Source: a bacterium (lineage in GTDB: Bacteria > SAR324 > NAC60-12). Taken from it: a DNA stretch of 64,000 bases. Under the pieces are notes generated by a model. The model saw only the letters and a program-made list of their open reading frames with translations. It had not been told where the DNA came from and did not search any database. The position numbers and the translations under genes were made by a program. How positions within the stretch are numbered: the first letter of the stretch is position 1; each line of letters begins with the position of its first letter. This document shows positions 8,921 to 44,042 of the stretch, one piece after another. The DNA lies in assembly GCA_965209155.1 (NCBI GenBank), contig OZ242383.1:4194201-4258200 (forward strand), in the 5' to 3' direction.

Positions 8921-8936
8921 ACGGATTTGTCCCTTC

Positions 8937-9887: not shown

Positions 9888-9889
9888 TA

Positions 9890-10681: not shown

Positions 10682-11604
10682 TATCTACCCCTTTGCTTCC
10701 GTTCATTTTCCCACAACCCAGCCTTGTCATGGTTTGTTGAGTTATAACCTTGATGTCATCTCGACCGCATGGAGAGATCCCAAGATTCCTCACGTTCGTT
10801 CGAAATGACACATTTTTAAATGGGATATAACCTAACGAACCATTACATCTTAGGGACTAAAATAGTGTTTTTTATAACCGTTTTTTGAGAAAATAGGCAA
10901 GCAAAAAAATCAGAAAAAGTTTGACAGTGATTTTTGAATATTTTTTTAACTGTTCATTGATTCAAATTAGCAGTGTTGAATCTTACGCAATCTTTGCTCA
11001 GATTTAAGAACCTGTTTAAAAATTACGTACTGCGTTTTAACATGAGTCGAATCATAGCGATATAGACAATGACTTCAGCAGTGTGAGCATATCTTTCATA
11101 ATCGGTATTTTGTCGATGATACTATCCAAACCAAGAAATGGTTCTTTCCACAATCCATCACAATATGTCGTTTCCGTCCCTTCACCTTTTTTCCTCCTTA
11201 AAACCCCCGGAACCTCGCTGTTTTTCTGCATTTTGATTTTCTCACTCATCTGTCTCCTTTCTCCTTTTCATCAAATTTCCTTGCTCCTATGTCCCTCCAC
11301 AGCTGTTCAAAATTGTCCTGCAATCATTTTATAAGTCTCCACCCGATCTTTCGCATTGATTCTTTCTCGGGATCTGCGTACCTTTTTCATACGATCTCCC
11401 TTCGTTGGGTTAAAGTTTTGCGTGGTCCATGAAACCACAACATAACGAATGTGAGTTCATTTTTCAGTTTTCAACTAATTTTTGGACATTTCCTACCTTT
11501 AGTCCTTCCAGAATATTTTCTTTTGTCAGTTATTTTAAGTCAATAGCTGTTTGGCAATAAAATTGCATGTCTTTTTAATGTCCATTTTTTTAAAAAGGAG
11601 GTAG

Positions 11605-11883
11605 ATGTATCAAAGCAATTTAAGCGATCAGCAATGGTCTGAGATTGAACATTTTTTTAGACGTTCCGATCCCCGAGGTGCCAAAAGTATTCATAGCAAA
11701 CATACCATCGTCAATGCGATTTTATATGTGTTGGAAACGGGTTGTCAGTGGAGACTGCTTCCCCACGATTTTCCTCCCTGGCAAACCGTTTACGATCATT
11801 ATCGCCGCTGGAATCAAAGAGGGATTTGGCAAGAGGTTTTGGATTTCCTCAATGCCCGCACTCGCGTGAAAGAGGGTTCTTAG
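11605..11883 (+). mobile_element. IS5-family (IS4/5 DUF4096-type) transposase N-terminal fragment, IS remnant
   Basis: 92 aa with the characteristic N-terminal region (NAILYVLETGCQWRLLPHDFPPWQTVYDHYRRWNQRGIWQEVL) but no DDE catalytic domain follows. Confidence 0.7.
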
Positions 11884-11935
11884 AGTCCTTCCAATGTTTT
11901 CTTTTTTGTCAGTCTTTTGACCTTATAGATGCCTT

Positions 11936-12367
11936 ATGTCCTCAGAAACTTCTCTGATTGAAAAGCTCCAACGCATTGAGCGACTTTATGAAGGAGCCAT
12001 CACAGAAGGGGAACGCCTTGCCGCTGAAGAAGCTCTGCAACGGATCGGGGAAAGATTGCGCAAGATTCAACAGAAGGATCCTGTGGTTGAATACAAATTC
12101 ACCTTTCCCGACTTCTGGAGGCGGCGTTTGTTTGTTGCTCTGCTGAGACGTTACGGGTTTCGTCCTTATCGTTATCGAGGGCAACGTCACACGACAGTGA
12201 TGACTCGAATATCGAAATCATTTGTGGATCAAACTCTCTGGCCGGTCTTTTTAGACTTGTCTGAAGCGTTGGTTTCCCACCTGGATGAGATCACCACCCG
12301 CATCATCCAACAAGCGATTTATTCCGATAGTTCTGAGGCAGAAGAAAGAGACATGCTGCCCGGTTAA
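11936..12367 (+). CDS. Hypothetical protein
   Basis: 143-aa ORF between IS fragment and methyltransferase fragment; charged, helical composition; no family recognised. Confidence 0.35.
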   Translation: MSSETSLIEKLQRIERLYEGAITEGERLAAEEALQRIGERLRKIQQKDPVVEYKFTFPDFWRRRLFVALLRRYGFRPYRYRGQRHTTVMTRISKSFVDQTLWPVFLDLSEALVSHLDEITTRIIQQAIYSDSSEAEERDMLPG

Positions 12368-12390
12368 CCCCTTGAAGTTTTTATTGCCGA

Positions 12391-12924
12391 TTGTATGCTT
12401 TCATTAGGCGTAACTGCAGAGTCCCGGACTGTTGGGGACTGAAGGATCGTGACCTGATGGGATTGCCTTGGCGAGTAGCATTTGCATTACAAGACGACGG
12501 ATGGTTGCTGCGCTCAAAAATCACCTGGCTGAAGAAAGCTCCTATGCCCGAAAGCGTCAAGAACCGACCGTCAAACGCCACAGAGGAAATCTTTCTGTTC
12601 TCAAAAAGTGCAAAATACTACTACAACAATCAGGCAGTGCGAGAAGAAACCGGCGCCAATCTCCGGAATTACTGGCTGTTGGGGACGGATGCTGGTGACA
12701 AGCTGCATCCCGCCGTTTTTCCAAAAGAATTGGCACGGCGCTGCATAATCTTGGGTAGCCGTCCCGGAGATGTGATTCTTGACCCGTTTTCAGGGTCGGG
12801 AACTACTGGCATAGCAGCGATCGAGTCAAATCGTCGCGTCGTCCTTATTGAATTGAACGAAGAATATGCGACACAATCCGAAACCCGGATAAATAAGGGC
12901 GTACAGCAAACCTTAGCTGTTTAG
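12391..12924 (+). pseudogene. N-truncated DNA methyltransferase (beta-class N6A/N4C type), C-terminal portion only
   Basis: Contains the region preceding motif I (LHPAVFPKELARRCI) and motif I itself (DPFSGSGTT) plus the upstream ITWLKK segment, but the DPPY-type catalytic motif that lies N-terminal in this class is absent. Confidence 0.6.
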
Positions 12925-12941
12925 CTCCGATAAATTGCGCC

Positions 12942-13238
12942 ATGAGTACACTTTCAGAATTACGGCGAAGTTATCACTCCAAAATTGGCTCGCAAATAGT
13001 CCGATTCTCCGAGAGAAATCGCTTGCTTTATCCAAACTTTGCCGATGGCAGCAGTCAATCCAGCGTTTTCATTGCAAATGGAATAATAGATTGTGTATAT
13101 CACTTCGCTTTGGATGAGTTGCGCCAAGTCTGTGAAGCCATTCCCAAGGTGAAAGATCAATCAGAAATGCTGGCAGTCATGGTCGAAGGTAGTAGACTTC
13201 GTGACATAAGTGATTTGCCTTTCGATATTGTTGTTTAG
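12942..13238 (+). CDS. Hypothetical protein
   Basis: 98-aa ORF only; weak support. Confidence 0.25.
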   Translation: MSTLSELRRSYHSKIGSQIVRFSERNRLLYPNFADGSSQSSVFIANGIIDCVYHFALDELRQVCEAIPKVKDQSEMLAVMVEGSRLRDISDLPFDIVV

Positions 13239-14354: not shown

Positions 14355-15341
14355 ATGACGGATACGCCACATGCAACTCCTCAAGATCATAATCAGGATA
14401 TGCTTCCTGCAAAGTTCGTTTTGAATAAATACCGGATCATTTTCGTAGCATTAACGCTTGTCGCGGTCGGCCTCGCCGCATGCGGCGGTGGAAAATCAGG
14501 ATCGGATCCCCTTAGTAGCCTTGAAAGCATCAGAGAACTGACTGGCATGACGGCACCGGTAGAGAAGCCCGCGGCGCAAAAAGCACGAGCACCAGGTATT
14601 GCCTCGCGATCCGACTCTCTGATCATCTCTACGACGTACGTGGAAACGAGCGACGATGAACTTCCCACTTTTAGCTTCGGGGCGCAGTGCGCCGGTACTC
14701 GGTGCACGATATCGGAGCCCAGGATCGGATACGTCAGGACCGTTACCCTGTCTGAACTCGAGACCATAACCCTGTCTGAACTCGAGATCGTGGACGGCTC
14801 TCCTGAAGCAGTTGGAACCAAGCACGGCATCACCCTGATGTCGGTAACCGGCCGGCGCATGGACGATGAGTTCACTACGTTTGGAGCATGGATGGCGCAT
14901 GGCGGGTTTCAGGTTGAGACCGCGCGTGTGGTAATCCCGGATGATATCAGGATGAACCTCGTCTCCGGCCTCGCTTTGGGTGATCTCACGGGCAGCCGTC
15001 CAAGAGGGAGCGCAACGTGGATCGGTCTTATGGTTGGAACGCCTGCCACAGGGGATAACCTCGGAGACAGGCTGCAGGGAGATGCGGCCTTGAACTACGA
15101 CATGAGCGCCGGCGGTGGGCTCGACGTCGGTTTCAGCAGTATCAAGAACATCGACCGTGGCACGGCGCACACGACATCCACAGTGCTATTCGCAGACGTT
15201 CCAATCAGTTCGAGTGGGACGTTTGAAGCAGGCCATGCTGGCAACCGCATCCAGGGCGGTTTCTACGGTCCTGATCACATTGAGGCTGCTGGAATTTTCG
15301 AGCAGTCAAACATCGTCGGAGCCTTCGGAGCAAAACGATGA
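14355..15341 (+). CDS. Surface lipoprotein with TbpB-like C-terminal beta-barrel (handle) domain
   Basis: Lipobox (VAVGLAACGGG) after a signal peptide; C-terminus NRIQGGFYGPDHIEAAGIFEQSNIVGAFGAKR matches the terminal motif of transferrin-binding-protein-B-like lipoproteins. Confidence 0.55.
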   Translation: MTDTPHATPQDHNQDMLPAKFVLNKYRIIFVALTLVAVGLAACGGGKSGSDPLSSLESIRELTGMTAPVEKPAAQKARAPGIASRSDSLIISTTYVETSDDELPTFSFGAQCAGTRCTISEPRIGYVRTVTLSELETITLSELEIVDGSPEAVGTKHGITLMSVTGRRMDDEFTTFGAWMAHGGFQVETARVVIPDDIRMNLVSGLALGDLTGSRPRGSATWIGLMVGTPATGDNLGDRLQGDAALNYDMSAGGGLDVGFSSIKNIDRGTAHTTSTVLFADVPISSSGTFEAGHAGNRIQGGFYGPDHIEAAGIFEQSNIVGAFGAKR

Positions 15342-15498
15342 TGAAAGAATCATTCACTAACGAAAATGCAAAGAAAGGGCTCAATTCTCAGAAGAAATCG
15401 GCTTGTTGGCTGGATCGATCAAAGGGTGACCGGTTGAAGAATTTGATGGTTTTTATATTTTGTGTTTCTTGGTCTCCTCGATTTTGTTGTGGTTCGTT

Positions 15499-15885
15499 TC
15501 AGTCTTTGTTTTGTTTTTCAAGATAGCGCTGAATCTCTTCCAGAGAAATCCGTTTGAGGATCTCAACGGGCGAAAGTCCTTTCAGGCGATCATCGGCCGA
15601 AAAGCGTTTGAGGACTTCATCAGTCGAAAAGCGTTTGAGGACCTCATCGGTCGAAAGCACACCCAAATGATCACGCACATAATCTTTTTGAAAATCTTCC
15701 ATCGTATAGGCCATCTCTAATCCCTCCAATTGATAGTTCTCAAAGAGTTGATTTAATATCGTACTGATTTCCCGGGTATGCCCTCGGTATTGACGCGAGG
15801 CAAATTCCACTTCTCCGGGAATGCCACTGAATAAATGCCAAATCGCATTATGCTCCGCATGAGCGATCTCACTCAGTACAATCAT
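15499..15885 (-). CDS. Hypothetical protein with tandem TDEVLKRFS-type repeats, possibly a gene fragment
   Basis: 128-aa ORF; ~30-bp tandem coding repeats at about 15540-15690; reading frame stays open upstream of the first Met, suggesting truncation. Confidence 0.3.
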   Translation of the reverse strand: MIVLSEIAHAEHNAIWHLFSGIPGEVEFASRQYRGHTREISTILNQLFENYQLEGLEMAYTMEDFQKDYVRDHLGVLSTDEVLKRFSTDEVLKRFSADDRLKGLSPVEILKRISLEEIQRYLEKQNKD

Positions 15886-16140
15886 CCGAATGAGATCACT
15901 CCCCCGCTGAATCTCATATGAAAGCGTTCTGGCTAGAAAGTTTGGAAAAGTAGCGTTTTTTTCTTATTCAAATCGATTTTACTTTCCTTTTCGCTTGTTT
16001 CTGAAAATGGCTCGTCAACCACGCCTTTACTATCCTGGCGCGCTTTAGCATGTGAATCTTCGTGGCCATGGAGGGCAAACCTTTTTTTCTGTCCTTCCTA
16101 CTATCGACAATTTTATCACTTGCTCCCAGATGGTTCCCAA

Positions 16141-16640
16141 TGCTTTGATCACCGGATTCACGCCTTTTGCTTAATGAGCAATCGTGTTCCTCCCTACTCT
16201 CTTCCTCTTTGAAGACAGATCATTCATCAAATGGATCGAGTTTATCAACTACCGGAGAATGAATTAACCCGAGTTCGACATAAATCTTCAATAATAGGAG
16301 TATTCTGGCGTTTATGTCTTTCCGGGCGCAGACCCGAAATCCAGATTTCAGTCTGGCTGCATACCTCTGGATTCCTGGTCAAGCCAGGAATGACACGTTT
16401 TCTCTACAGTCACGAAAGTCGAGTGAAGCCCGCGCGATGATTAGCCTGTTGGCTGTCGATTGGAAGTCCGCCACTATTCGAGTAGTCGGAAAATTTTAAA
16501 TTGAGATGATTTGACGATCAGCTTTGCTATGCACCAGTTGCGACAACGATTGAAGGAATCCGAGGGTCTCCAAATTCAATTAGAGGAACTAAAACGTCAA
16601 ATACTTGCTTGAAGTTTCAAACTTTCAGGCCTGACTCCTT
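16141..16640 (+). repeat. Dispersed ~500-bp repeat, element X copy 1
   Basis: Near-identical to 18060-18556 and, over its 3-prime ~240 bp, to 21961-22200; contains an embedded REP-like hairpin unit. Confidence 0.75.
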
Positions 16641-16833
16641 TTTTTTCACTCCTATAAAGAATTTCATAAGGTGAAGTAGATGTCTGGCCTATGTAGTTCT
16701 GAAAACCGCCGTTATAGCCCATGTAAAAATTCCCGTCCAAATCGCTTGAGTAACCGGGGCGACTGTCTTTCTCAACTCGCTTTTGGTTGTCTACAAAATC
16801 GGACTGTATTTTTATTTCTCGTTTCTTCGCCAT
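16597..16833 (-). CDS. Small hypothetical protein
   Basis: 78-aa ORF with AAGGGAAAG SD, just downstream of the lipoprotein gene; last codons run into element X. Confidence 0.3.
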   Translation of the reverse strand: MAKKREIKIQSDFVDNQKRVEKDSRPGYSSDLDGNFYMGYNGGFQNYIGQTSTSPYEILYRSEKKGVRPESLKLQASI

Positions 16834-16868
16834 AACACTTTCCCTTTCAATCAGAAAATAAATCTAAA

Positions 16869-17591
16869 TCAATTCTCTTTCATAGCTTTCCAACGCTTAA
16901 AAACAAAATCCACCATAAATTTATGAATCTCATATCCTCCATAATAATCATCTCTTAATTTTTGTACCATCGCAACATTAGGAGTCACAAAATTAGAAAG
17001 GTATAACTCATCAAAACGATCCAAATTTATACGATCCACAACAACTTTAATGATAGTATGTTGTTGATTGGACCCTGATAATAACACTAATTGATCATAA
17101 CCATAAGAATCTCTTCTAATATCAAAGCTAATAAAATCCAAAGAGATTAATTCTTCTTCACGTACTAAACTGATAAGTTCCTTCCACTCTCGATCATAAT
17201 AATATGCCCCTAATCCACAACGCTTATTCACATTATCACTCCATCGAGCCACTATTATCACTCTTGAATCATCAGGATATTTTTTCTCTTCGTAAAACCT
17301 TGAATGATAACCCATTATAGGTTGACCAGAAACATCATATTCCTCAATCTGTATCACGCAACCTTCAGGAAAAACTCGCTCAATTTTTTCAAAAAAAGTT
17401 AACTCCATATCAGGTTCAATTTCTGCCTCGACCACCTCAGGTAATACAGGAACTACCACTGAATCTTTGACAGTAGGAATTTGCTGAATACCATCATCCA
17501 CTTGAACACCAGCAACCGGAGCAGTCTCTTGAACCGGCATCGCACAACCAAACAAAAAGACCACTACAAATAACAAATAAAAAATTCTCAT
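16869..17591 (-). CDS. Hypothetical lipoprotein
   Basis: 240 aa; signal peptide with lipobox (FLFGCAM); AT-rich codon usage typical of this island. Confidence 0.55.
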   Translation of the reverse strand: MRIFYLLFVVVFLFGCAMPVQETAPVAGVQVDDGIQQIPTVKDSVVVPVLPEVVEAEIEPDMELTFFEKIERVFPEGCVIQIEEYDVSGQPIMGYHSRFYEEKKYPDDSRVIIVARWSDNVNKRCGLGAYYYDREWKELISLVREEELISLDFISFDIRRDSYGYDQLVLLSGSNQQHTIIKVVVDRINLDRFDELYLSNFVTPNVAMVQKLRDDYYGGYEIHKFMVDFVFKRWKAMKEN

Positions 17592-17642
17592 AAAACTCCT
17601 GTTATCGTACCATTAATAAAAAGGGATTTGTAGGCCATGTGA

Positions 17643-17990
17643 TCAATCATCAATAAACTCCCAACAAGTTGTGTTCGTTACTGCTTCAAATACATCACAA
17701 GCAAGTATTCTTGATGAACCGCCTTTATCATCTTCAATACTTAAATGATACTCTTCTCCATTCTTACATTTAACTGCAATATATAATGCAGCAGTATTCC
17801 AATCAATCCTTCTTATAAAATATTTCGTTACTGCACAAGAGACCCCAGACGCTGGACTAGCGAGCATAGTTAGAAATCGAATTTATTCTTTTTCGCTATC
17901 TCCATAAATTTGATAAAACCAGCGATTTGCATGAATTTGAGAAAACGATAATAAAATTGAAATCAACAGATAACAAATAATCTTTTTCAT
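17643..17990 (-). pseudogene. Secreted-protein gene interrupted by an in-frame TAA stop
   Basis: A 35-codon ORF starting at ~17990 encodes a signal peptide (MKKIICYLLISILLSFSQIHA) and is in the same frame as ORF 17643..17867, separated by a single TAA. Confidence 0.4.
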
Positions 17991-18009
17991 AACACATTCT
18001 AAAGGAACT

Positions 18010-18556
18010 GAAACGTCCAATACCTACTTGAAGTTTCAAACTTTCAGGCCTGACTCCTTTTTCATTATCACCGGATTCACGCTTTTTACTTAATGAGCAA
18101 TCATGTTCCTCCCTGCTCTCTTCCTCTTTGAGGACGGATCATTCATCAAGAGGCTCGAGTTTATCAACTACCGGAGAATGAATTAACCCGAGTTCGACAT
18201 AAATCTTCAATAATAGGAGTATCCTGGCGTTTATGTCATTCCGGGCGAAGACCCGGAATCCAGGTTTCAGTCTGGCTGCATACCTCTGGATTCCTGGTCA
18301 AGCCTGGAATGACACGTTTTCTCTGCAGTCACGAAAGTCGAGTGAAGCCCGCGCGATGATTGACCTGTTGGCATTCGATTGGAAGTCCGCAACAATTCGG
18401 GAGGTCGGAAACGTTTTCAATCGAGATGATTAAACGATTAGGTTTGGAGTGCACCGCTTGAGACCACGATTGAAGGAATCCGAAAGTCTCCAAATTCAAT
18501 TAGAGGAACTGAAACATCAAATACTTGCTTGAAGTTCCAAACTTTCAAACCAGACC
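18010..18556 (+). repeat. Dispersed repeat, element X copy 2 (with tail of an additional copy at its 5-prime end)
   Basis: Aligns with 16141-16640 along nearly the full length; the tail motif CTTGAAGTTTCAAACTTTCAGGCCTGACTCC is present at both ends. Confidence 0.75.
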
Positions 18557-18713
18557 TTGGTACTCACCAATCCCCGCGATATCTGACCGGGTGGAACGAT
18601 ATTCCTTCATCCGGCATTATTTCCAATTTATTTAAATGTTCCTATTATTGAATCAGTCTTTTTATCATAGACCTCAATTGTAGTTGCCAAAATAAACATT
18701 CTGAAATTTTCAT

Positions 18714-19040
18714 CTAATTCACTTCACCTGATAAAATAATTATACAATCATTACTACTGAATAGTCCTGAACGGCAATTTTTATTAAAATAATCCATAAA
18801 ATTTTTTCGGCCAATTCGGCTTAATATATCGGCACTTGCTCGAAGTGTATATCCATCAGATTGTACATCAAAATAATCATTTACTGATAATTTATCAGCA
18901 AAATAACTTGTTGTTCCTGCAAATTTAATCTCGTATCCTATTGACGCAAAATCAAAGGTATAGTCCTTTAATGTGGTTCTAAAAGGTTCGGCTTGAATAA
19001 TATTTACAAAAATTAAACCGATTAAAATATTTAAAGACAA
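18714..19040 (-). CDS. Small secreted hypothetical protein
   Basis: 108 aa with N-terminal signal peptide (MSLNILIGLIFVNIIQA). Confidence 0.45.
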   Translation of the reverse strand: MSLNILIGLIFVNIIQAEPFRTTLKDYTFDFASIGYEIKFAGTTSYFADKLSVNDYFDVQSDGYTLRASADILSRIGRKNFMDYFNKNCRSGLFSSNDCIIILSGEVN

Positions 19041-19104
19041 ATAAACGTTTCATATTGTATTCTCCATATTGAAGGTATTTCAAAATCGATCCAAAATTAT
19101 CAAT

Positions 19105-19455
19105 TCAAACTGAGATTGATTCTTTTTTTTTCTTAGGTTCAATTATTGCCAGGACACCACCTATAAAAGCTAAAACCATAAAAATCGCTACTATCGTACC
19201 ACCTAAAATTGCACCTACAATCGCACAAAGACATGTTATAATTCCCGGGATTCGGCTGTTTGAAGTTAAAGTAATTGCTCCCATAACTATGGTAAGAAAA
19301 GAAAAGAGAACTCCACCCCAGCCGAGACCGATTACTGTATTCGCCCCTTCCGCTTGAAAGGCACCGCCTATTCCACCTATGAATAAAGTTGCACCGGCAG
19401 CAAATACACTGAAAATACCTGCAATTATTGCAATAATTCCTCCTGCTTTTCTCAT
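19105..19455 (-). CDS. Glycine-rich small integral membrane protein
   Basis: 116 aa, three to four hydrophobic segments rich in small-xxx-small glycine motifs, lysine-rich C-terminal tail. Confidence 0.5.
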   Translation of the reverse strand: MRKAGGIIAIIAGIFSVFAAGATLFIGGIGGAFQAEGANTVIGLGWGGVLFSFLTIVMGAITLTSNSRIPGIITCLCAIVGAILGGTIVAIFMVLAFIGGVLAIIEPKKKKESISV

Positions 19456-19525
19456 ATCATCTCCTTTCTGTTATTTTTGCGTCAATAGAATCCATTCGAT
19501 TCTGCCAGAAGTTCTACTTCACGAA

Positions 19526-19822
19526 TTATTTTCTCCTTTTGAAATCTTCTTTGATGACCCGGAACACGTATCTCATCTCGTCCTCAGACTTTTTCCCGAA
19601 ACGTTTTGCCATCCTGTAACCGAGATTAGTCCACGTCAATTTTTTTAATGCCAGTTTCCCAATTTCTTTTTTATTTAAAATTAGATTATTCCAAGAAAAA
19701 ATAAAATTTTCTAAATGCTTATTAGTTGGATTTTTGTTCGTAACATCCTTTACAAACTCTTTATCCAAAGCCAAGCGTTCCAGTTCAGCCAACACTTGCA
19801 GGTGAGTCACTTCTCGATTCAA
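19526..19822 (-). CDS. Small protein, member of local paralog family (LTW-x-LGY-x-M motif)
   Basis: 98 aa; shares a conserved C-terminal core with ORFs 20760..21020 and 21020..21286; a fragment of its 5-prime end is repeated at ~20490-20600. Confidence 0.5.
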   Translation of the reverse strand: MNREVTHLQVLAELERLALDKEFVKDVTNKNPTNKHLENFIFSWNNLILNKKEIGKLALKKLTWTNLGYRMAKRFGKKSEDEMRYVFRVIKEDFKRRK

Positions 19823-19834
19823 TTTGACCTCTTT

Positions 19835-20326
19835 TCACAATTCATTTTTTACTATTTCCTGAATAATTTTTTTAAATCTCTTAAATTCAATCTTTAATTC
19901 TTGTATAGTTTTATCTAATTCAACCATGTTCTTTCTGGAATTCATTTTAAATTCTTCATACGTCATATCAGGATCATATGTAGGTGATAATCGGACACTA
20001 ATAAAAAGAAGAACAAATGAACAAATAAAAACAACAAATGCTCGCTTTCGAGTTGGCAAGTACAAACGAGAAATGGGGTACAACATACAAATAAACGATA
20101 TTATACTAATGATCATAAAGACAAATACTAAAATAATACTTATTTCTTCCATTGTAGGTGGTAATTGGACACTAATAAAAAAAAGAACAAATGAACAAAT
20201 AAAAACAACAAATGCCCGCTTTCGAGTTGGCAAGTACAAACGAGAAATGGGGTACAACATACAAATAAACGATATTATACCAATGATCATACAGACAAAT
20301 ACTAAAATAATGCTTATTTCTTCCAT
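19835..20326 (-). CDS. Membrane protein with internal tandem duplication
   Basis: 163 aa; a ~58-aa unit with a transmembrane helix (MEEISIILVFV...RKRAFVVFICSFVL) occurs twice, from a direct ~186-bp DNA tandem repeat; opposite-strand ORF 19926..20594 judged a shadow. Confidence 0.45.
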   Translation of the reverse strand: MEEISIILVFVCMIIGIISFICMLYPISRLYLPTRKRAFVVFICSFVLFFISVQLPPTMEEISIILVFVFMIISIISFICMLYPISRLYLPTRKRAFVVFICSFVLLFISVRLSPTYDPDMTYEEFKMNSRKNMVELDKTIQELKIEFKRFKKIIQEIVKNEL

Positions 20327-20759
20327 AAATTACCTGTTTTTATTACAACCTAAATTGAGCGATTCTTTTCAAGAAATGGATTTTTCAGATGATTATTGTG
20401 CCCAAGGAATCGAATCATTGAGATATAAGCATTTGATCATCAAATTCATGGAAGTTCGGGTCAGAATGGATCTCAAGTTGATGTTTTCGGCTGTGGGGAA
20501 ACTTCATTTCTCATGCTATGCACACACTCATCCTCAGCCAGGCGTTCCAGTTCAGCCAACACTTGCAGGTGAGTCACTTTTCGATGCATTTTGACCTCTT
20601 TTCACAATTCATTTATTAGTATTTCCTGAATAATCTTTGCTTCACGGCATTCTTTATCTCGTGTTACTTCTTCCAAGCGCTTTAATTCTTTTATCGTGGA
20701 GACAGCGAAAATGACTTATTTCCCGGTGAATTTGAATTCCGTTCTTTTCAGGTATATAT

Positions 20760-21020
20760 TCATGATTTATCTGAATATTCATCAGCCAGGATGCGATAGG
20801 CATAGTCAATGTCTTCCGGATCTTGAGTTTTAAAATACCTGCCCATTTCGTAACCCAGACTGATCCACGTAATATAATTTAAATCAACCGTATCCAATCT
20901 TTTCCCTTTCCAGCCATCACGGAATGCTGATTGTTTATCCTCCGTAGGTGGCTCACGATTATCGGCAAATTTTTCCTCTTGTAATTCCCGAAGACGATTT
21001 AATACATTTTGATATCTCAT
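20760..21020 (-). CDS. Small protein, paralog family member
   Basis: 86 aa; NLTWxSLGYEMG...DPEDIDY...RILADEY core shared with its tandem neighbour. Confidence 0.5.
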   Translation of the reverse strand: MRYQNVLNRLRELQEEKFADNREPPTEDKQSAFRDGWKGKRLDTVDLNYITWISLGYEMGRYFKTQDPEDIDYAYRILADEYSDKS

Positions 21021-21286
21021 TATTCCCTATTATTTTTTGAATATTCATCAGCCAGGATGCGATAGACATAGTCAATATCTTCCGGATCTTGAGTTTTAAA
21101 ATACTTGCCCATTTCGTAACCCAGACTTTTCCACGTGAGGTTATTCGGATTTAATCTTGATATTCCTTTTCCAAACCATGCTTGTCGAAATGCTGATTGT
21201 TTATGCTCCGTAGGTGGCTCACGCTTTTCGACAGGCTTTTCCTCTTTTAATTCCTGAAGACGATTTAAGATTTCTGAATATTTCAT
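21020..21286 (-). CDS. Small protein, paralog family member
   Basis: 88 aa; tandem with 20760..21020, overlapping stop/start (translational coupling). Confidence 0.5.
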   Translation of the reverse strand: MKYSEILNRLQELKEEKPVEKREPPTEHKQSAFRQAWFGKGISRLNPNNLTWKSLGYEMGKYFKTQDPEDIDYVYRILADEYSKNNRE

Positions 21287-21383
21287 AATTCTCCTTTATC
21301 TTTAAGATTTTTCCTTAGGATTTTAAGCAGATATAAAACGTTTTGATATCTGCTTGGTACTCCTTAGAATTAAGATTTGAATA

Positions 21384-21700
21384 TAAAAAAACACTTGAAA
21401 AAATTTGCAAAAGGAGATTGAGCTGGGTTAGTATTTTTGATTGCCGAAAGGAGGATATAAAAAAAGCCCGTCTTCCCTCATGGGAAAATTCTTGAAAAAC
21501 ATTGCCGTGTTTCTCAAGGATATGATGGGTGTCCTGCTCCTCCTTTGGCCTTCTTGCTTTCCTGTCATTTCCTCCCTTTCATCGATGACCGGGCGGCCAA
21601 CTCACTGGGTCTTTCCCTTTTTACCAGGTTATCGATGACGCCAGCAAACTTGGTTTCCGTGTTGGTGAACCTTTTGTTAAGGAAAAAGAAGTTAAGAAAT
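21384..21700 (+). repeat. Dispersed ~320-bp repeat, element Y copy 1 (promoter-like)
   Basis: Shares with 22915-23250 and 25317-25650 a TTGCAA-N17-TAGTAT-like motif followed by an 11-bp inverted repeat CCAAAGGAGGA ... TCCTCCTTTGG about 85 nt apart. Confidence 0.65.
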
Positions 21701-21960
21701 CTGGTTCAATTTATCTTTCAGATCCGATACCTGTTCCGATGAAATTGGAATTGAAAATTCCCCATAAGGAATATTTGACATGGGTACAGGATGAGAGAGT
21801 GGCTTCCTGGGCCGAATCAAAAGCATTTTAGAATTTTCTTCATCTTCTTTAATACTGACATCTGCTTCAAATTTAACATTCAACGTTACTTGTGAATTTT
21901 TATCCATATTTATCTTCTTTTTTTTTGAAATCGATATTGATTAATTTTTCTCTGTACTTT

Positions 21961-22200
21961 TGAAGGAGTTGAGTAAAACCCGCACGATGATTGGCTCGTT
22001 GGCTTTCGATTGGAAGTCCGCAACGATTTGGGAGATCAAAAAATTTGCAATCGAGATGATTCTATGATCAGCATTGGAATTCGTCGGTTGAGACCAAGAT
22101 TGAAGGAATCCGAGGGTCTCCAATTTCAATTAGAGAAACTGAAACGTCAAATACTTGCTTGAAGTTTCAAACTTTCTGGCCTGCCCCCTTTTCAATATGA
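21961..22200 (+). repeat. Element X copy 3 (3-prime ~240 bp only)
   Basis: Aligns with the 3-prime half of 16141-16640. Confidence 0.65.
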
Positions 22201-22213
22201 AAACTAAAGAGAT

Positions 22214-22891
22214 TTAAAGACCTGTAATGAATAGAATGAAATAACCATCATATTTAATTAATTTTTCAATTCCATAAGTAGGGATGCCTATAGTAAAATC
22301 AGAACGAACCTCCATAGAATTTGTTTGAGTAGGAACGTCATTAATATAAACACCAAAATAACCGATTGATAGAGGTCTTTCATACGGAATTATTTTGAAT
22401 CGGATTTTAAAATCTGATAATTGAATAAATGATGCAGCAGATGATTCAAAAAAACTTTCCATTTTCACACGTAGTTCGGGGGGGAAATGTAAACCTAGCG
22501 TCCTAACGCCTTCATCATTAGGGAAATAAGTAATATTAATTATTTCTTCATCAACATATTTACCATCCCTTTCTTTATCTAAAAAAGCGGGAATCGAAAA
22601 AGAGACCATATGTTTAAATAGTCCTTTTTCTTCACATCCTAAATATTCTGCCCCTTTGAAAATAAAAGGAATTTTTGCTTGTAATTCAAAAACTGTATCT
22701 TCTGGCAAATTACTTTTGCTCTTAGTACATCCCTGAACTTCAATATTCATAATTCCATTAACCTCTATCGGATCTGTCCCTTCTTTAGCAAAATTAGCGA
22801 GGTCGATTTCCATAAATAAATCTAGATCACAACCTGAAATCAAAACTACAATTAATAACAAACCCAATATGCTGAAAATTGACTTTTTCAT
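22214..22891 (-). CDS. Hypothetical lipoprotein (paralog of 23258..23911)
   Basis: ORF 22214..22903 trimmed to MKKSIFSILGLLLIVVLISGC (lipobox); GGAG SD upstream. Confidence 0.55.
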   Translation of the reverse strand: MKKSIFSILGLLLIVVLISGCDLDLFMEIDLANFAKEGTDPIEVNGIMNIEVQGCTKSKSNLPEDTVFELQAKIPFIFKGAEYLGCEEKGLFKHMVSFSIPAFLDKERDGKYVDEEIINITYFPNDEGVRTLGLHFPPELRVKMESFFESSAASFIQLSDFKIRFKIIPYERPLSIGYFGVYINDVPTQTNSMEVRSDFTIGIPTYGIEKLIKYDGYFILFITGL

Positions 22892-22914
22892 ATCAAACTC
22901 CAAATATAATTTAT

Positions 22915-23250
22915 CAAATAATACTTAAAAAGTTTGCAAAACAGGATTGACAGGGTTAGTATTTTTGGTTGCCAAAGGAGGAAATAAAAAAGCCCGTCCT
23001 CCCTCTTTGGGAATTTCTTGAAAAACATTGCCGTGTTTCTCAAGGATATGATGGGTGTCCTGCTCCTCCTTTGGCCTTCTTGCTATCCTGTCATTTCCTT
23101 CCTTTCCTTAAAGACCGGGCGGTAAACTCACCGTGTCTTTCCCTGTTTACCAGGTTATCGATGTTGCCAGCAAACTTGGCTTCCATCTTTGTAAATCTTT
23201 CGCAATCTCTTCCGCTTTCCGATGAATCATTTCAGAAATTTTCTGTCATT
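22915..23250 (+). repeat. Element Y copy 2
   Basis: See 21384-21700; lies between the two paralogous lipoprotein genes. Confidence 0.65.
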
Positions 23251-23257
23251 GAAATTG

Positions 23258-23911
23258 TTAAAAATTGTATGATTGAGTACTGAATACGACAAATTCCTTC
23301 ATTTCATTTGATAACAAAACCCTTGTCCCGTAATGGGGTATTCTTACAGAGAACTCAGAATTCAGTGTAGTATCTATAAATTGGTATGGTTTATCATTCA
23401 AATACACTCCCATTCCTTTTACATTCAATGGAGTCAAATCGGGTAAGATTTGGAATTTTATATTAATATCATCCATTTTTATTTCATCAGACGCAGATAT
23501 TAACAAATTCAATTTCCCTTTTAATCCTGGAGGAAATGAAAAAATTAATTCTCTTTCACCATTTTCAAGTTTAAAATATTCTAAATTTGATATTTCATCA
23601 TCCACTGGTTTGTCATTGTCATTATTATCAATATAAACTGGAATTTCAAATAACAAGTAATAGTCAAAACCCGAACGATCACAATCCTCATATTTTGCCC
23701 ATTTGAAGACATAAAGTAATTGTTCTTTTAATTTACTGACATCATCACTATCACACACATTAACTTCCACTGCCAATCGACCTTTTATAAGAGTTGATTT
23801 ACCATCATCAGTAAATAGATTGAGATTAACTGGTATATCAATAAAAATATCACAACTGGCTATAACTAAAGATATTACTAGTAATTTTATACAACAAACA
23901 ATCTTCCTCAT
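23258..23911 (-). CDS. Hypothetical lipoprotein (paralog of 22214..22891)
   Basis: ORF 23258..23956 trimmed to MRKIVCCIKLLVISLVIASC (lipobox); shares domain order and several motifs with the neighbouring lipoprotein. Confidence 0.5.
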   Translation of the reverse strand: MRKIVCCIKLLVISLVIASCDIFIDIPVNLNLFTDDGKSTLIKGRLAVEVNVCDSDDVSKLKEQLLYVFKWAKYEDCDRSGFDYYLLFEIPVYIDNNDNDKPVDDEISNLEYFKLENGERELIFSFPPGLKGKLNLLISASDEIKMDDINIKFQILPDLTPLNVKGMGVYLNDKPYQFIDTTLNSEFSVRIPHYGTRVLLSNEMKEFVVFSTQSYNF

Positions 23912-24106
23912 AAGACATTCTCCATGAAAATAATTGCAAATGAATATGGTCAGCATAGTAAAAATTGAAATTGTTCTTGAAGCTATTCAATTTGAAGAAA
24001 AAATTATTTTTGGCTGAGCTGCTTGAAATCGGATTCGCCCAACGTTTAGCTTCAATTGTTTTTTTTTGGAAAAATCCCCAGCTCAATCAACAAACTATCA
24101 TCTCCT

Positions 24107-25159
24107 CTAAGACGAATGCATTTGCCAAGCAAGCATCAACTGCAATGCGCGCTTCTGCAAAACCGGATCTTTAGGAGCTTTTATCCTTCCTTCAGAATCA
24201 AATACAATTCCTAATGATGGATATTGAAAAAATCTCTCCAAATCTGGATCAAAATCAGGCTTAAGATCGCCTTTATAACCATCCCACAGGACCAAAGGCG
24301 GTAGATCCGCGTTCAATTCAAGCTCCGTCCACATGGGCGAGTGATCGCTCACCCCCGACTTCCGGTATTTGTGGCAGTAACCGCAGGCTTTGAGATCGAA
24401 ATGTCTCGATACGAAAGTGTGGTCGTAACATTTCGGAGAGCCTTTTGTGACGTGGGTGACTGGGGTTCTGGCAAAACCGTGGAGAGCGCGATAGGCGTCG
24501 CGCAGACCATGCCGTGATGCGCCGGCGAGGACGGAACGCACAGGGTCGTCCCATTCCTTACCCGAACCCCTGCGACCGTAACCGTCTGCCCATTCTTTGC
24601 AAAGGTATGGGACCCCATTTTTGTCTATATTTTCGCCCCAAGTCACAACCTGTCCGGAACTGCGAAATTCTCGCGGCTCATTGAAATCACCGGTCAGGAT
24701 TCGTGGCGAGTCGTTCCCCTCGCGAAGCGCCGCCAACAAGACGTTGAAGGTGTCGATTTTCGACCAGCCATTGCCGGAACCATTGGGGATGTGGACCGTG
24801 AAGAGCTCGACGTCTCCCTCCGGTAGTTCGATCATCGCTCGCCCCAGTATCTCCGGGTAAGGCGCACCCTTGCGCCATGTATCGTCGACAGGACTTAATG
24901 GCCACTTGCTCGCGATGAGACATTGATATTTCTTCTTATACTTAATCAGCCATTTTGGATTATCAGGCGCATCTTTGCCGCTGTTCAAGGAGTGTTTGAG
25001 TCCAAGTCCGGCGAGGCACTTCGCCATCTCATCCGCGAGCTCCGACTTGACCTCCTGCAATGTGACCAGGTCCGGCTTTACGGCGCCAATGGCTTTAACA
25101 ACCAGATGTAAGTTTTTAGGCAAGGTATTAAATTTAACGTTCCAGGAAAGTAGTCTCAT
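24107..25159 (-). CDS. Endonuclease/exonuclease/phosphatase (EEP) family protein
   Basis: 350 aa; EEP-type N-terminus (LLSWNVKFNT...DLVTLQEV) and conserved C-terminal SDHSP; ~100-aa C-terminal extension of unknown function. Confidence 0.6.
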   Translation of the reverse strand: MRLLSWNVKFNTLPKNLHLVVKAIGAVKPDLVTLQEVKSELADEMAKCLAGLGLKHSLNSGKDAPDNPKWLIKYKKKYQCLIASKWPLSPVDDTWRKGAPYPEILGRAMIELPEGDVELFTVHIPNGSGNGWSKIDTFNVLLAALREGNDSPRILTGDFNEPREFRSSGQVVTWGENIDKNGVPYLCKEWADGYGRRGSGKEWDDPVRSVLAGASRHGLRDAYRALHGFARTPVTHVTKGSPKCYDHTFVSRHFDLKACGYCHKYRKSGVSDHSPMWTELELNADLPPLVLWDGYKGDLKPDFDPDLERFFQYPSLGIVFDSEGRIKAPKDPVLQKRALQLMLAWQMHSS

Positions 25160-25316
25160 GAAAGGCTCACGTGCTTATCCAGTGAAATTCCATGGCTGTT
25201 TGTATGCAAAGAATTCAGGGTTCCCATCCAATCATCGATACGATATTCTCCCGCCAATACAGGCGAGGGATTCTTTTTTCTCATCACTTAGCGACCTTTC
25301 TTGCAACTCGGAAAAC

Positions 25317-25650
25317 TATAAAAAGTTTGCAAAACAGGATTGAGAGGGTTAGTATTCTTGGTTGCCAAAGGAGGAAATAAAAAAGCCCGTCCTCCCTCAT
25401 GGGGAAATTCTTGAAAAACATTGCCGTGTTTCTCAAGGATATGATGGGTGTGCTGCTCCTCCTTTGGCCTTCCTATTATCCTGTCATGCCTTTCCTTTCA
25501 TTGAAGACTGGGTGCCAAACTCATCTGGTTTTGATCTGGTTGCCAGGTTATTGATGAGGCCAGCCAACCTGATTTCAATGTTGGCGAAGCTTTTGTTTGA
25601 GGTTTTGTCACCTGGTCCCATATTGTCAAACTTGTCACCCAATCGTCGGA
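25317..25650 (+). repeat. Element Y copy 3
   Basis: See 21384-21700; located upstream of and divergent from the EEP gene. Confidence 0.65.
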
Positions 25651-26189
25651 ATCCCTGATCCGAGTTGGCTGTCCCACCGACCGAGTGTTTCCCTTTGAAG
25701 ATGGCATACGTGGTTCATGCGCGTGTATCTTCTTCCTGGAATTTCATTTTTACGTGGCAATCTGTTTCTCGATGGCGCTGTGATAAAAAGGTTGCATTCG
25801 ACGTCCGTATGGGGACGCCGGGTTATAGCAACGCAACCTAATCTAGGAGGAAGGCCCGACTATTTGTCCAGAATGGAGTGGCCAAACTCCAATCAGATTA
25901 GGGACTATTCTATTCATCGGGTAACCCGACAAATAAATTAAGTCGCGTTGCTGTTCACACTATGAATGAATGATTTAGAGATGTCAATATACTTTTCCAA
26001 AAAAATATAATCTTTATTTTACGAAAAGACGCTCGACTCCGGTGAGCATTACTGAGTGGAAGGCAATTGCCTGGAAATATCAATGTCCCGGGGCCTATGG
26101 ACTCCGCAGACGGTCGTTTACATATTATCCATTACATTCCCTATGATTTGATCCTGGTACGCTTTGGTGTGAGTCCGTAGATCCTCTCT

Positions 26190-26650
26190 ATGTCATTCCT
26201 GTGCAAGTGGGAATCCAGGGAATCGAAATGACCCCTGGATTCCGGGTCTTCGCAAGGAATGACACATTCTTGGATTCGGGGTCTTCGCCTGGAATGACAT
26301 CCTCCTGGATTAGCGGTATTCGTTTGGAAAGACACGTTCATGGATTCCTGGTCTGTGCAAGGAATGACACATTCTTGGATTACTGGTCTGTGCCAGGAAT
26401 GACACATTCTTGGATTACTGGTCTTCGCCAGGAATGACACATTCTTGGTGTGGTGTTTTTCGCTTGGAATGACACGTTCCTGGATTACTGGTCTTCGCCA
26501 GGATTGACATCCTCCTGGATTAGTGGTATTCGCCAGGAATAACACATTCTTGGATTAGTGGTATTCGTTTGTAATGACATGTTCCTGGATTTCTGGTCTT
26601 CGCAAGGAATGACACGTTCCTGGATTCCTGATCTGTGCAAGGAATGACAA
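26190..26650 (+). repeat. Tandem array of ~12 REP-like 35-bp hairpin units
   Basis: Contiguous degenerate units of consensus TGGATTCCGGGTCTTCGCCAGGAATGACACATTCT, each with an internal inverted repeat; no unique spacers. Confidence 0.8.
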
Positions 26651-33853: not shown

Positions 33854-34075
33854 GTCATTCCTGGCTTGACCAGGAATCCAGTGTTGGTAAGGATTTCCTG
33901 GATTCCGGGTCTGCGCCAGGAATGACACACTCCTGGATTCCCGATTGCAGGGGCCAGGACATTTTCGTTCCCCTGGATTCCGGGTCTGGGCCAGGAATGA
34001 CTCACTCTTAGATTCCTGGTCTGCGCCAGGAATGACTCACTCTTGGATTCCGGGTCTGGGCCAGGAATGATACTC
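33854..34075. repeat. Tandem array of REP-like hairpin units (about 6 units, mixed orientation)
   Basis: Units such as GTCATTCCTGGCTTGACCAGGAATCCAG and CTGGATTCCGGGTCTGCGCCAGGAATGAC. Confidence 0.8.
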
Positions 34076-34094
34076 TCCCGAAAACGTCCTTTAC

Positions 34095-43790: not shown

Positions 43791-43835
43791 AAGCGCAAGC
43801 CGTCCTCGAATTCCCAAAGAGAGAAGCCCAACATC

Positions 43836-44042
43836 CCCTGGATTCCGGGTCTGTGCCCGGAATGACAACACTAACGCCGCCTGGATTCCGGGTCTGCGCC
43901 CGGAATGACAACACTGACATCCCCTGGATTCCGGGTCTGTGCCCGGAATGACAACACTGACATCCCCTGGATTCCGGGTCTGTGCCCGGAATGACAACAC
44001 TGACATCCCCTGGATTCCGGGTCTGTGCCCGGAATGACAACG
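43836..44042 (+). repeat. Tandem array of five 43-bp REP-like hairpin units
   Basis: Near-identical units CCTGGATTCCGGGTCTGTGCCCGGAATGACAACACTGACATCC, each with inverted repeat ATTCCGGG / CCCGGAAT; no spacers. Confidence 0.85.

What the first reader, a model, noticed from the sequence alone, without database searches (positions are those of the whole stretch)
22915..23250. About 320-bp promoter-like repeat (element Y) with an 11-bp inverted repeat built around an SD-like sequence
Three copies (21384-21700, 22915-23250, 25317-25650) share a TTGCAA-N17-TAGTAT sigma70-like motif followed by CCAAAGGAGGA and, ~85 nt downstream, its perfect complement TCCTCCTTTGG. Each copy lies next to the start of a minus-strand gene (lipoproteins, EEP protein) but the promoter-like motif points the other way. 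The ORFs predicted within the copies differ mostly by non-synonymous changes, which argues against protein coding. This could be a family of divergent promoters with a structured antisense or leader RNA, or a MITE.
Basis: partly seen in the sequence, partly recalled or inferred. Interest (0 to 1): 0.5.

Follow-up and report, generated by a model that had tools for sequence, protein, structure and literature searches.

The report
Repeated non-coding module between gene cassettes
A roughly 280-base non-coding sequence with a nearly invariant, strongly folding 105-base core is repeated three times in front of unrelated gene groups in a hypervariable island of an uncultured marine bacterium; it is real and lineage-specific, probably a small regulatory RNA or promoter module, but its function is not shown.

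Summary
Three direct copies (21396-21677, 22925-23203, 25318-25596, + strand) share a TTGCAA-N17/18-TAGTAT motif and a 12-bp inverted repeat (GCCAAAGGAGGA/TCCTCCTTTGGC) that closes a 105-nt three-way junction. No reading frame is conserved.

Four related contigs add 11 copies. The only other copy is on one contig that shares nothing else with the window. No other public collection searched holds the element.

All copies lie in one low-GC island of minus-strand cassette genes. All are antiparallel to those genes. The A-tract/-35 end lies 22-121 nt from the start of an unrelated downstream gene. Synteny between strains breaks exactly at that end.

The core is more conserved (0.96-0.99) than neighbouring genes (about 0.92), but shows no covariation.

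Best reading (confidence about 0.4): a small + strand transcription unit, a family of sibling sRNAs of about 240 nt, set head-to-head against each cassette operon. It also serves as recombination homology.

Rivals: a portable promoter or leader for the cassette genes, or a DNA-level junction site. Integron attC, MITE, inverton, type I toxin and coding readings were tested and not met.

Moderately interesting. It is a new family of a known kind.

The parts
21396..21677 (+). Y copy 1 (whole repeat unit)
   Evidence: nhmmer profile hit, E 2e-97; alignments
22925..23203 (+). Y copy 2 (whole repeat unit; the finding)
   Evidence: nhmmer E 6.7e-100
25318..25596 (+). Y copy 3 (whole repeat unit)
   Evidence: nhmmer E 4e-99
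22927..22962 (+). A-tract, -35-like TTGCAA (22934-22939), 17-nt spacer, -10-like TAGTAT (22957-22962). Equivalent sites: 21405-21434 (18-nt spacer) and 25327-25355.
   Evidence: Sequence. Conserved in 11 of 14 copies; the distant copy L008 has TAGAAT. Only 8 of 12 matches to consensus; function inferred.
22971..23075 (+). Core: 12-bp helix GCCAAAGGAGGA/TCCTCCTTTGGC closing a three-way junction (7-bp inner stem, a 5-bp hairpin and a 14-bp hairpin). Equivalent cores: 21443-21549 and 25364-25468.
   Evidence: MFE -47.5 to -50 kcal/mol, z -5.5 to -6.2 on +; -42.7 to -45, z -4.3 to -4.9 on -. Column agreement 0.96-0.99 across 14 copies. No covariation.
23076..23112 (+). C/U-rich, G-poor linker predicted unpaired (CCTTCTTGCTATCCTGTCATTTCCTTCCTTTCC)
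   Evidence: Consensus fold leaves it unpaired; agreement 0.905. An anti-SD-like or seed role is inference only.
23113..23203 (+). Less conserved 3' part with hairpins. In most copies the unit ends at CTTTTGTT after a hairpin (copy 1: hairpin 21626-21672, T-run 21672-21678).
   Evidence: agreement 0.857. Terminator-like in the Y1 and Y3 types, poor in the Y2 type.
23014..23043 (-). Promoter-like site inside the core hairpin, pointing toward the cassette genes. TTGAGA-N18-AAGAAT in copies 1 and 3 (21517->21488, 25436->25407). Copy 2 has AAGAAA.
   Evidence: 9 of 12 matches; present in 10 of the 11 copies scanned. It lies in invariant sequence, so its conservation is not independent evidence.
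22214..22903 (-). Cassette gene downstream of copy 2 (DUF7424 lipoprotein B, real start ATG 22891). This is the strain-variable slot 22197-22918.
   Evidence: Pfam PF24199, 1.3e-21. Replaced by unrelated lipoprotein cassettes in relatives, with breakpoints at 22919 and 22196.
23258..23956 (-). DUF7424 lipoprotein A. It converges on the right end of copy 2 and stays linked to it across strains.
   Evidence: Pfam 4e-30; collinear with Y2 in L002, L004 and L019.
24107..25287 (-). 42-aa ORF (25156-25287) overlapping the start of the EEP-family gene (24107-25159); the unit downstream of copy 3
21020..21286 (-). 88-aa gene, with its 86-aa tandem paralogue at 20760-21020; the unit downstream of copy 1

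Best explanation
Y is a non-coding module of about 280 bp, confined to a hypervariable low-GC cassette island of one lineage. I read it as a small transcription unit on the + strand. An A-tract plus TTGCAA-N17-TAGTAT promoter would start an RNA of about 240 nt. Its first 105 nt fold into a three-way junction closed by a 12-bp helix that looks like a Shine-Dalgarno/anti-Shine-Dalgarno duplex. A C/U-rich single-stranded linker follows, then hairpins ending in a T-run. Each copy is set head-to-head against the first gene of a minus-strand cassette group, only 22-121 nt from its start codon. The mRNA of that group must therefore start inside Y or read through it. Y RNA would then be antisense to that leader and act as a shared regulatory RNA and insulator for the cassettes, as a family of sibling sRNAs. 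As a by-product, the near-identical direct copies supply the homology at which cassettes are deleted, duplicated and exchanged between strains. Shown: the repeat, its non-coding nature, its sharp ends, its orientation, the exceptional conservation of the core, and the synteny breakpoints at its left end. Inferred: transcription, the strand, the RNA's length and any regulatory action.
For: Three window copies, plus 11 in syntenic relatives and 1 in an unrelated contig, all in one orientation. No frame is conserved. dN/dS is 0.4-2. Indels of 1-2 nt and lost start codons break every ORF. The source's own annotation does not include the ORFs. Homology starts at the same A-tract in 6 different left contexts and ends at CTTTTGTT in 4 right contexts. 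These are the edges expected of a promoter-to-terminator unit. The -35 and -10 motifs are kept in 11 of 14 copies, and the most distant copy has a better -10, TAGAAT. The + strand folds 3-5 kcal/mol better than the - strand, and its 7-bp inner stem relies on G-U pairs that become A-C mismatches on the - strand. The core is more conserved (0.96-0.99) than flanking genes (about 0.92) and than the rest of Y. A 60-nt stretch is identical in L008, which shares no other DNA similarity with the window. Only 22-34 nt separate Y from several downstream start codons.
Against: The promoter matches only 8 of 12 consensus positions, and such matches are common by chance. Its hexamers are no better conserved than the spacer (0.88-0.89 against 0.84). 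Three copies (two in L020, one in L004/L022) have decayed hexamers but a largely intact core. There is no covariation: the score of 0.075 equals the shuffled mean, and one-sided changes do not favour either strand. The terminator is weak and is missing in Y2-type copies. There is no Rfam match. There are no expression data. Some indels in relatives may be assembly errors in contigs of 3-7x coverage.
Confidence: 0.4

Rival explanations
1. Portable promoter or 5' leader for the cassette genes. Y works on the minus strand. A promoter inside the core (TTGAGA-N18-AAGAAT) or read-through from upstream gives each cassette group a common 5' leader of 110-230 nt. That leader carries the anti-SD-like arm UCCUCCUUUGG. 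The palindromes would be operator sites for a shared regulator. Y would then be a 'putative mobile promoter' reused in front of unrelated genes.
For: Y meets the operational definition of a putative mobile promoter: more than 50 nt at 80% identity or better, within 150 nt upstream of non-homologous CDSs, with non-homologous upstream CDSs (PMC3488235). The minus-strand site scores 9 of 12, better than the + strand one, and points at the genes. There is no room for another promoter in the 22-34 nt before several start codons. Each Y precedes a multi-gene group. Conservation at sequence level without covariation fits protein-binding DNA.
Against: The 18-nt spacer and a -10 lacking the first T make the site a weak promoter. 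Copy 2 has AAGAAA. The site lies in invariant sequence, so its conservation says nothing on its own. Distances from Y to the start codon vary from 22 to 121 nt. This reading does not explain the sharp right end at a hairpin plus T-run, or the 125 nt of recognisable sequence upstream of such a promoter. The minus strand folds less well.
Confidence: 0.25
2. DNA-level junction or recombination site of a cassette array. The core hairpin would be recognised, as double- or single-stranded DNA, by a recombinase encoded elsewhere. Cassettes would be inserted or exchanged at the left end of Y, as in an integron-like system without a linked integrase.
For: The array has unidirectional small genes separated by repeats X and Y in a low-GC island. 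Synteny between strains ends within a few nt of Y's left end, and the slot holds different cassettes in four strains. The same left boundary occurs in 6 contexts. The core is a long imperfect palindrome conserved as sequence.
Against: No RYYYAAC...GTTRRRY pair with a paired stem exists anywhere in the island on either strand. No integrase or other recombinase was found among the window ORFs scanned. The other breakpoint of the slot lies at a different repeat (X), and one relative shows a plain deletion between X and the inside of Y. This fits ordinary homologous or illegitimate recombination. There are no circular or empty-site forms.
Confidence: 0.12
3. Selfish or decaying repeat: a MITE-like element, or a remnant of tandem duplication kept uniform by gene conversion, with no function of its own.
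For: The 105-nt core is bounded by a perfect 12-bp inverted repeat, as in a small MITE. Decayed RAYT/IS200-like fragments and REP-like arrays lie nearby. One copy sits in an otherwise unrelated contig, which suggests transfer. Some copies are truncated or decaying.
Against: There is no target-site duplication around the core or around the whole unit, and no terminal inverted repeats at the ends of the 280-nt unit. No core occurs without its flanks, and no other copies occur in the 64-kb window. All known copies in the lineage lie in one island. The same graded conservation (core above flanks) is seen in the unrelated L008 contig, where gene conversion with the other copies cannot act.
Confidence: 0.1
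4. A small protein gene, for example a type I toxin-like hydrophobic peptide (MGKFLKNIAVFLKDMMGVLLLLWPS... on +, or MFFKNFPMREDGLFYFLLWQP... on -) with an antisense RNA.
For: Gene callers called the + strand 51-111-aa ORFs in relatives. One + frame stays open for 98-104 codons in copies 2 and 3. The peptides are partly hydrophobic.
Against: dN/dS is about 0.4-2 with almost no synonymous changes in the core. The ATG is lost in copy 2, L002_b and L008. Indels of 1-2 nt shift the frames between copies within the window itself. No start codon lies at a workable distance from the SD-like motif on either strand. A search of 1.84 billion representative proteins finds only four spurious ORF clusters, all from these same contigs.
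Confidence: 0.03

Closest known systems
Putative mobile promoters (Matus-Garcia et al. 2012, PMC3488235)
   Same: Highly similar non-coding sequence upstream of non-homologous genes within one genome, with a conserved core. Y meets the operational definition.
   Different: That class is defined only by position and similarity, not by mechanism. Y is longer (280 nt), and its best promoter-like motif points away from the genes. It has a large folded core and is confined to one island.
Multicopy 'sibling' sRNA families such as LhrC1-5 of Listeria (PMC4132741, PMC5880928)
   Same: Several near-identical small non-coding units close together. Each would have its own promoter and terminator. Each has structured domains plus C/U-rich stretches that could pair with Shine-Dalgarno regions. 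LhrC targets include lipoprotein and surface-protein mRNAs (from my knowledge of those papers).
   Different: No sequence relation. Y RNA would be about 240 nt, against about 110 nt. Transcription, targets and inducing signal are all unknown. Y copies are interleaved with, and antiparallel to, protein-coding cassettes.
Integron attC sites and clusters of attC sites without an integrase (CALINs)
   Same: Array of small, unidirectional, strain-variable cassettes separated by similar imperfect palindromes. Long attC sites of chromosomal integrons can have branched central parts (my knowledge).
   Different: No R''/R' core sites and no integrase. The repeat lies 5' of the gene groups with only 22-34 nt to the next start codon. 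It is 280 nt long, against 57-141 nt. Only every second to fourth gene is followed by it.
Structured intergenic repeats (ERIC, BOX, Correia/NEMIS, bcr1)
   Same: Repeats of 100-300 nt that form stable RNA structures. Some carry promoters or processing sites and affect neighbouring genes (my knowledge).
   Different: Those are dispersed in tens to hundreds of copies, often with TIRs and TSDs. Y has at least 3-4 copies, all in one island, without TIR or TSD.
Divergent, 5'-overlapping sRNA/mRNA pairs (type I toxin-antitoxin loci; oxyS-oxyR, gcvB-gcvA)
   Same: Back-to-back promoter-like sites whose predicted transcripts would overlap by about 40 nt at their 5' ends.
   Different: No conserved toxin ORF. 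The partner genes are unrelated to one another.

Membership tests
Putative mobile promoter (PMC3488235) | [quoted passage not shown] | tested here: met
   The left part and core of Y are 85-97% identical between copies. They lie 22-121 nt from the start codons.
Putative mobile promoter (PMC3488235) | Downstream CDSs, and upstream CDSs, not homologous to each other | tested here: met
   Downstream: 88-aa protein, DUF7424-B, 42-aa ORF plus EEP. In relatives: 224-aa lipoprotein and 98-aa protein. Upstream: 71-aa protein, DUF7424-A, non-coding region.
Putative mobile promoter (PMC3488235) | Actually drives transcription of the downstream gene | not testable with these tools
   Only a 9/12 consensus match, TTGAGA-N18-AAGAAT, points toward the genes.
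Independent sRNA gene (sibling sRNA family) | Own promoter at a conserved position | tested here: inconclusive
   TTGCAA-N17/18-TAGTAT is present in 11 of 14 copies and TAGAAT in L008. But it is only 8/12, its hexamers are no better conserved than the spacer, and three copies have decayed hexamers.
Independent sRNA gene (sibling sRNA family) | Intrinsic terminator at the 3' end | tested here: inconclusive
   A hairpin plus UUUUGUU sits at the right boundary in the Y1 and Y3 types. It is poor in the Y2 type. The terminator scan did not flag it.
Independent sRNA gene (sibling sRNA family) | Conserved secondary structure supported by compensatory changes | tested here: not met
   Stability is significant (z to -6.2). 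But only 1 pair has changes on both sides, and the covariation score equals the shuffles. The stems are nearly invariant, so the test has little power.
Independent sRNA gene (sibling sRNA family) | Detected transcript | not testable with these tools
   No expression data are available.
Any Rfam family (riboswitch, ribozyme, known sRNA) | Covariance-model match | tested here: not met
   No hit at gathering thresholds in the window. At E up to 5, only chance snoRNA/miRNA hits outside Y.
Integron attC / CALIN | R'' RYYYAAC and R' GTTRRRY core sites paired at the base of the hairpin | tested here: not met
   No such pair with a paired stem in 15000-26500 on either strand. Y's arms are GCCAAAG.../...CTTTGGC.
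Integron attC / CALIN | IntI integrase and attI nearby (complete integron) | tested here: not met
   No tyrosine-recombinase domain among the ORFs scanned in and around the island. A CALIN would not need one.
MITE | Terminal inverted repeats at the element's ends, and a target-site duplication | tested here: not met
   The ends AAAAAGTTTG... and ...CTTTTGTT share at most 5 nt. No direct repeats flank any of the 6 left and 5 right contexts, nor the IR-bounded core.
MITE | Dispersed copies, and empty sites | tested here: inconclusive
   No other copies in the 64-kb window or in 22 loci. The whole genome could not be searched. One copy lies in an unrelated contig.
Invertible promoter (inverton) | Both orientations of the IR-flanked segment occur, and an invertase is nearby | tested here: not met
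   All 15 copies from 5 contigs have the 81-nt segment in the same orientation. No recombinase was found.
Type I toxin-antitoxin | Conserved small hydrophobic ORF with a usable start and SD | tested here: not met
   Frames are broken by indels, start codons are lost, and dN/dS is about 1.
tRNA/tmRNA-derived attachment site | tRNA or tmRNA gene, or a fragment of one | tested here: not met
   ARAGORN finds none in the window.

The most novel reading that the evidence does not exclude
Y is the defining junction element of a gene-cassette system that has not been described and does not depend on an integron. It would be a portable unit (promoter plus a 105-nt folded core with an SD/anti-SD-like closing helix) that both sets the expression of each cassette group through an antisense RNA and marks the precise point (its A-tract end) where new cassettes are captured. 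This would explain why an otherwise unrelated genome carries the same element.
Probability: 0.1. Interest if true: 0.7.

Novelty: new member of a known kind. Interest (0 to 1): 0.38.

Why it matters
If Y is a transcribed regulatory RNA or promoter module, it would show how a hypervariable island of lipoprotein and small-protein cassettes is expressed under common control. It would also show how a repeated regulatory module doubles as the substrate for cassette shuffling between strains. The core is more conserved than the surrounding genes and is shared with an unrelated contig. It is therefore a good target for RNA-seq or reporter work in this uncultured marine lineage. It does not bear on a long-standing open question as far as the present evidence goes.

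Tried and rejected
1. Exact-pattern scans of GTDB representative genomes gave only a chance match inside a vWA-domain gene (L001).

2. Two JGI metagenome scans gave nothing, then a chance terminator-like hairpin (L021).

3. IMG/VR, plasmid and phage collections gave no match.

4. My first protein search with a chimeric query was swamped by my own GGGGS linkers and is uninformative. The repeat without linkers found one ORF, P0001.

5. A profile search of 1.84 billion representative proteins returned only four ORF clusters, all from the contigs already in hand.

6. Exact look-ups of the EEP and 88-aa proteins failed, so the source genome (a 4.26-Mb record) could not be censused.

7. More distant relatives (ClpP cluster, L009-L018) have cas genes in the same slot and no Y.

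8. The regex-plus-folding search for attC sites found none.

9. PADLOC and NCBIfam scans of the cassette proteins gave nothing useful.

10. An RNA-duplex scan of the C/U-rich linker against all start regions showed no special affinity for island genes and was dropped.

11. I considered retron ncRNA (no RT gene, no branching G), hammerhead or other ribozymes (no Rfam hit), a CsrA sponge (the GGA motifs are in stems), an RCR single-strand origin, and tandem integration at an sRNA gene (cassettes too small, no integrase). None had support.

12. The organism's taxonomy could not be established with the remaining caps.

Full report
**Observation.** The window has about 52% G+C, but 16-24 kb is a 33-38% G+C island. 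In that island essentially all plausible genes lie on the minus strand.

Three direct copies of a repeat lie at 21396-21677, 22925-23203 and 25318-25596 (repeat finder; alignment; profile search). A 44-mer is identical in all three, with 0 expected by chance. The 11-mer CCAAAGGAGGA and its complement give 5 matches against 0.07 expected.

TTGCAA-N17-TAGTAT is present in copies 2 and 3. Copy 1 has an 18-nt spacer. The two arms are 81 nt apart and form a 12-bp helix with the flanking G/C. Copy 1 has a one-base bulge in that helix.

**Non-coding.**
- In the three window copies no frame shows purifying selection. Open frames have dN/dS of 0.4-2, and there are almost no synonymous changes in the core.
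- Copies differ by 1-2-nt indels in the A-run after the 5' arm. This breaks the long + frame and the 50-aa minus ORF.
- The ATG of the 51-aa + ORF is missing in copy 2 and in two relatives.
- The SD-like motif has no start codon at a workable distance on either strand.
- A profile of the most often called ORF finds only four clusters among 1.84 billion representative proteins, all from the contigs studied here.
- The source genome's own annotation does not contain these ORFs, although it does contain the neighbouring 88-aa protein.

**Structure.** The segment from arm to arm (105 nt) folds into a three-way junction: a 12-bp outer helix, a 7-bp inner stem, a 5-bp hairpin and a 14-bp hairpin.
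- On the + strand the energy is -47.5 to -50 kcal/mol, with z of -5.5 to -6.2.
- On the - strand it is -42.7 to -45 kcal/mol, with z of -4.3 to -4.9.
- The inner stem depends on G-U pairs that would be A-C mismatches on the minus strand. One position in the long hairpin shows the reverse.
- There is no Rfam match at any threshold and no tRNA or tmRNA.

**Relatives.** Exact-word scans of GTDB representatives, JGI metagenomes, IMG/VR, plasmids and phages found no true copy.

An exact look-up of the window's ClpP gave syntenic contigs from marine metagenome assemblies. Later look-ups extended these. These three strains are about 90-95% identical to the window in shared genes. They carry 3 copies (one truncated), 4 copies and 3 copies of Y.

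One further copy lies in L008, between the end of a CRISPR array and an M48 peptidase gene. That contig shares no other nucleotide similarity with the window.

More distant relatives with more than 90% identical ClpP have type I-C cas genes in the same chromosomal slot and no Y. In all, 15 copies are known, from five contigs.

**Anatomy of conservation.**
- Across 14 copies the core agrees at 0.96-0.99 per column, the promoter-like region at 0.84-0.89, the C/U-rich linker at 0.905 and the 3' part at 0.857.
- Among orthologous copies the core reaches 0.99, while the neighbouring genes average about 0.92.
- In L008 a 60-nt stretch of the core is identical to the window.
- The stems barely vary. 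Covariation equals the shuffled control, and one-sided changes favour neither strand.
- The conservation is therefore at the level of sequence. The thermodynamic signal is real, but evolutionary support for an RNA structure is absent. The test has little power here.

**Boundaries and context.** Homology begins at the same A-tract (AAAAAGTTTGCAAAA) in six different left contexts. It ends at CTTTTGTT in four right contexts. There are no terminal inverted repeats and no target-site duplications.

Every copy is antiparallel to the cassette genes. Its left end lies 22-34, 32, 110 or 121 nt from the start codon of a minus-strand gene. These genes are unrelated to one another.

The right part of Y co-varies with the gene that converges on it: the 71-aa gene, DUF7424-A, or a conserved non-coding region.

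Synteny between strains breaks within a few nucleotides of the left end of copy 2 (22919), and again at the edge of another repeat, X (22196). The slot holds DUF7424-B in the window. In the relatives it holds a 224-aa lipoprotein, alone or with one or two further genes. One strain has a tandem duplication of a Y-bounded unit. Another has a deletion running from X into Y.

**Interpretation.** The edges of the unit coincide with an A-tract and -35 on one side and a hairpin plus T-run on the other. The first helix would start about 5 nt after the predicted start, and the + strand folds better. Together these fit a small + strand transcription unit.

Several downstream start codons are only 22-34 nt from Y. 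Their mRNAs must therefore begin inside Y or read through it, so a + strand RNA would be antisense to their leader. A TTGAGA-N18-AAGAAT site (9/12) inside the core points that way.

I rank the readings as follows:
- Sibling-sRNA reading: 0.4.
- Portable promoter or leader: 0.25. Y meets the operational definition of putative mobile promoters in PMC3488235.
- DNA-level junction site: 0.12.
- Selfish or decaying repeat: 0.1.
- Coding: 0.03.

**Tests of known families.**
- Integron attC: no R''/R' boxes anywhere in the island, and no integrase among the ORFs scanned.
- MITE: no TIR or TSD, and no dispersed copies seen.
- Inverton: all 15 copies are in one orientation.
- Type I toxin: no conserved ORF.
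- Rfam families: none.
- Defence-system models do not match the cassette proteins.

**Verdict.** Y is a real, lineage-restricted, non-coding repeat family with an unusually conserved folded core. It sits at the junctions of a strain-variable cassette array. The kind (repeated promoter or sRNA module upstream of unrelated genes) is known. This family is not described in any collection searched. Function and strand remain unproven.

Noticed in passing
window 25790-25960 (with 25959-25987 and about 25780-25800): A non-coding stretch of about 170 nt just right of Y copy 3 is 0.98-0.99 identical in all four strains, while its flanks are about 0.88-0.93. It folds into a closed multi-stem structure, with z -5.7 on the minus strand and -4.2 on the plus strand. 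On the minus strand it is preceded by TTGACA-N17-CATAGT (10/12). It is followed by a GACGUCC/GGACGUC hairpin and a U-run. There is no Rfam hit. It occurs only in this lineage among the loci held. Candidate new sRNA gene.
   Followed up: partly
window 16130-16645, 18003-18548, 21960-22196; also 16011-16090: A second repeat family (X) is made of decayed fragments of a REP-associated tyrosine transposase (RAYT/IS200-like) gene on the + strand (MARQPRLYYPGAL*HVNLRGHGG...) plus REP-like units. Its right edge is the other breakpoint of the strain-variable cassette slot.
   Followed up: partly
window 26234-26649, 33896-34078, 43831-44041: Tandem arrays (5-12 copies, period 35 or 43 nt) of a palindromic REP-like unit, CCTGGATTCCGGGTCTGTGCCCGGAATGACA. 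The array next to the island varies in copy number between strains.
   Followed up: no
window 7661-13238: Remnants of defence and mobile genes left of the island: two BrxC/D-like ATPase genes, a DNA methylase fragment, a NgoMIV-type restriction enzyme fragment and an IS4/5 transposase fragment. The whole 7.6-26 kb stretch looks like a variable defence region.
   Followed up: no
L009-L012 (relatives), about 14.6-18.5 kb in locus coordinates: In more distant relatives (ClpP more than 90% identical), the slot after the U32 peptidase gene carries type I-C cas genes (Cas5d, Csd1, Cas7) instead of the EEP/DUF7424/Y island.
   Followed up: no
window 19979-20326 and 20760-21286: A 174-nt tandem duplication lies inside the 163-aa membrane-protein ORF. 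A 266-nt tandem duplication gives the paralogous 86-aa and 88-aa genes (69% identical).
   Followed up: no
window 15499-15885 (-): A 128-aa ORF ends in repeated ...EVLKRF... motifs. From memory these resemble the C-terminal part of Rpn/YhgA-like PD-(D/E)XK recombination-promoting nucleases. There was no Pfam hit. PDDEXK_2 genes occur in the relatives' flanks.
   Followed up: no
L001 3869-3890: The only GTDB-representative match to a 22-mer of the Y core lies inside a vWA-domain gene of a Verrucomicrobiales MAG (...KVFLKDMMATL...). There is no similarity beyond the 22-mer, so I judged it chance.
   Followed up: yes
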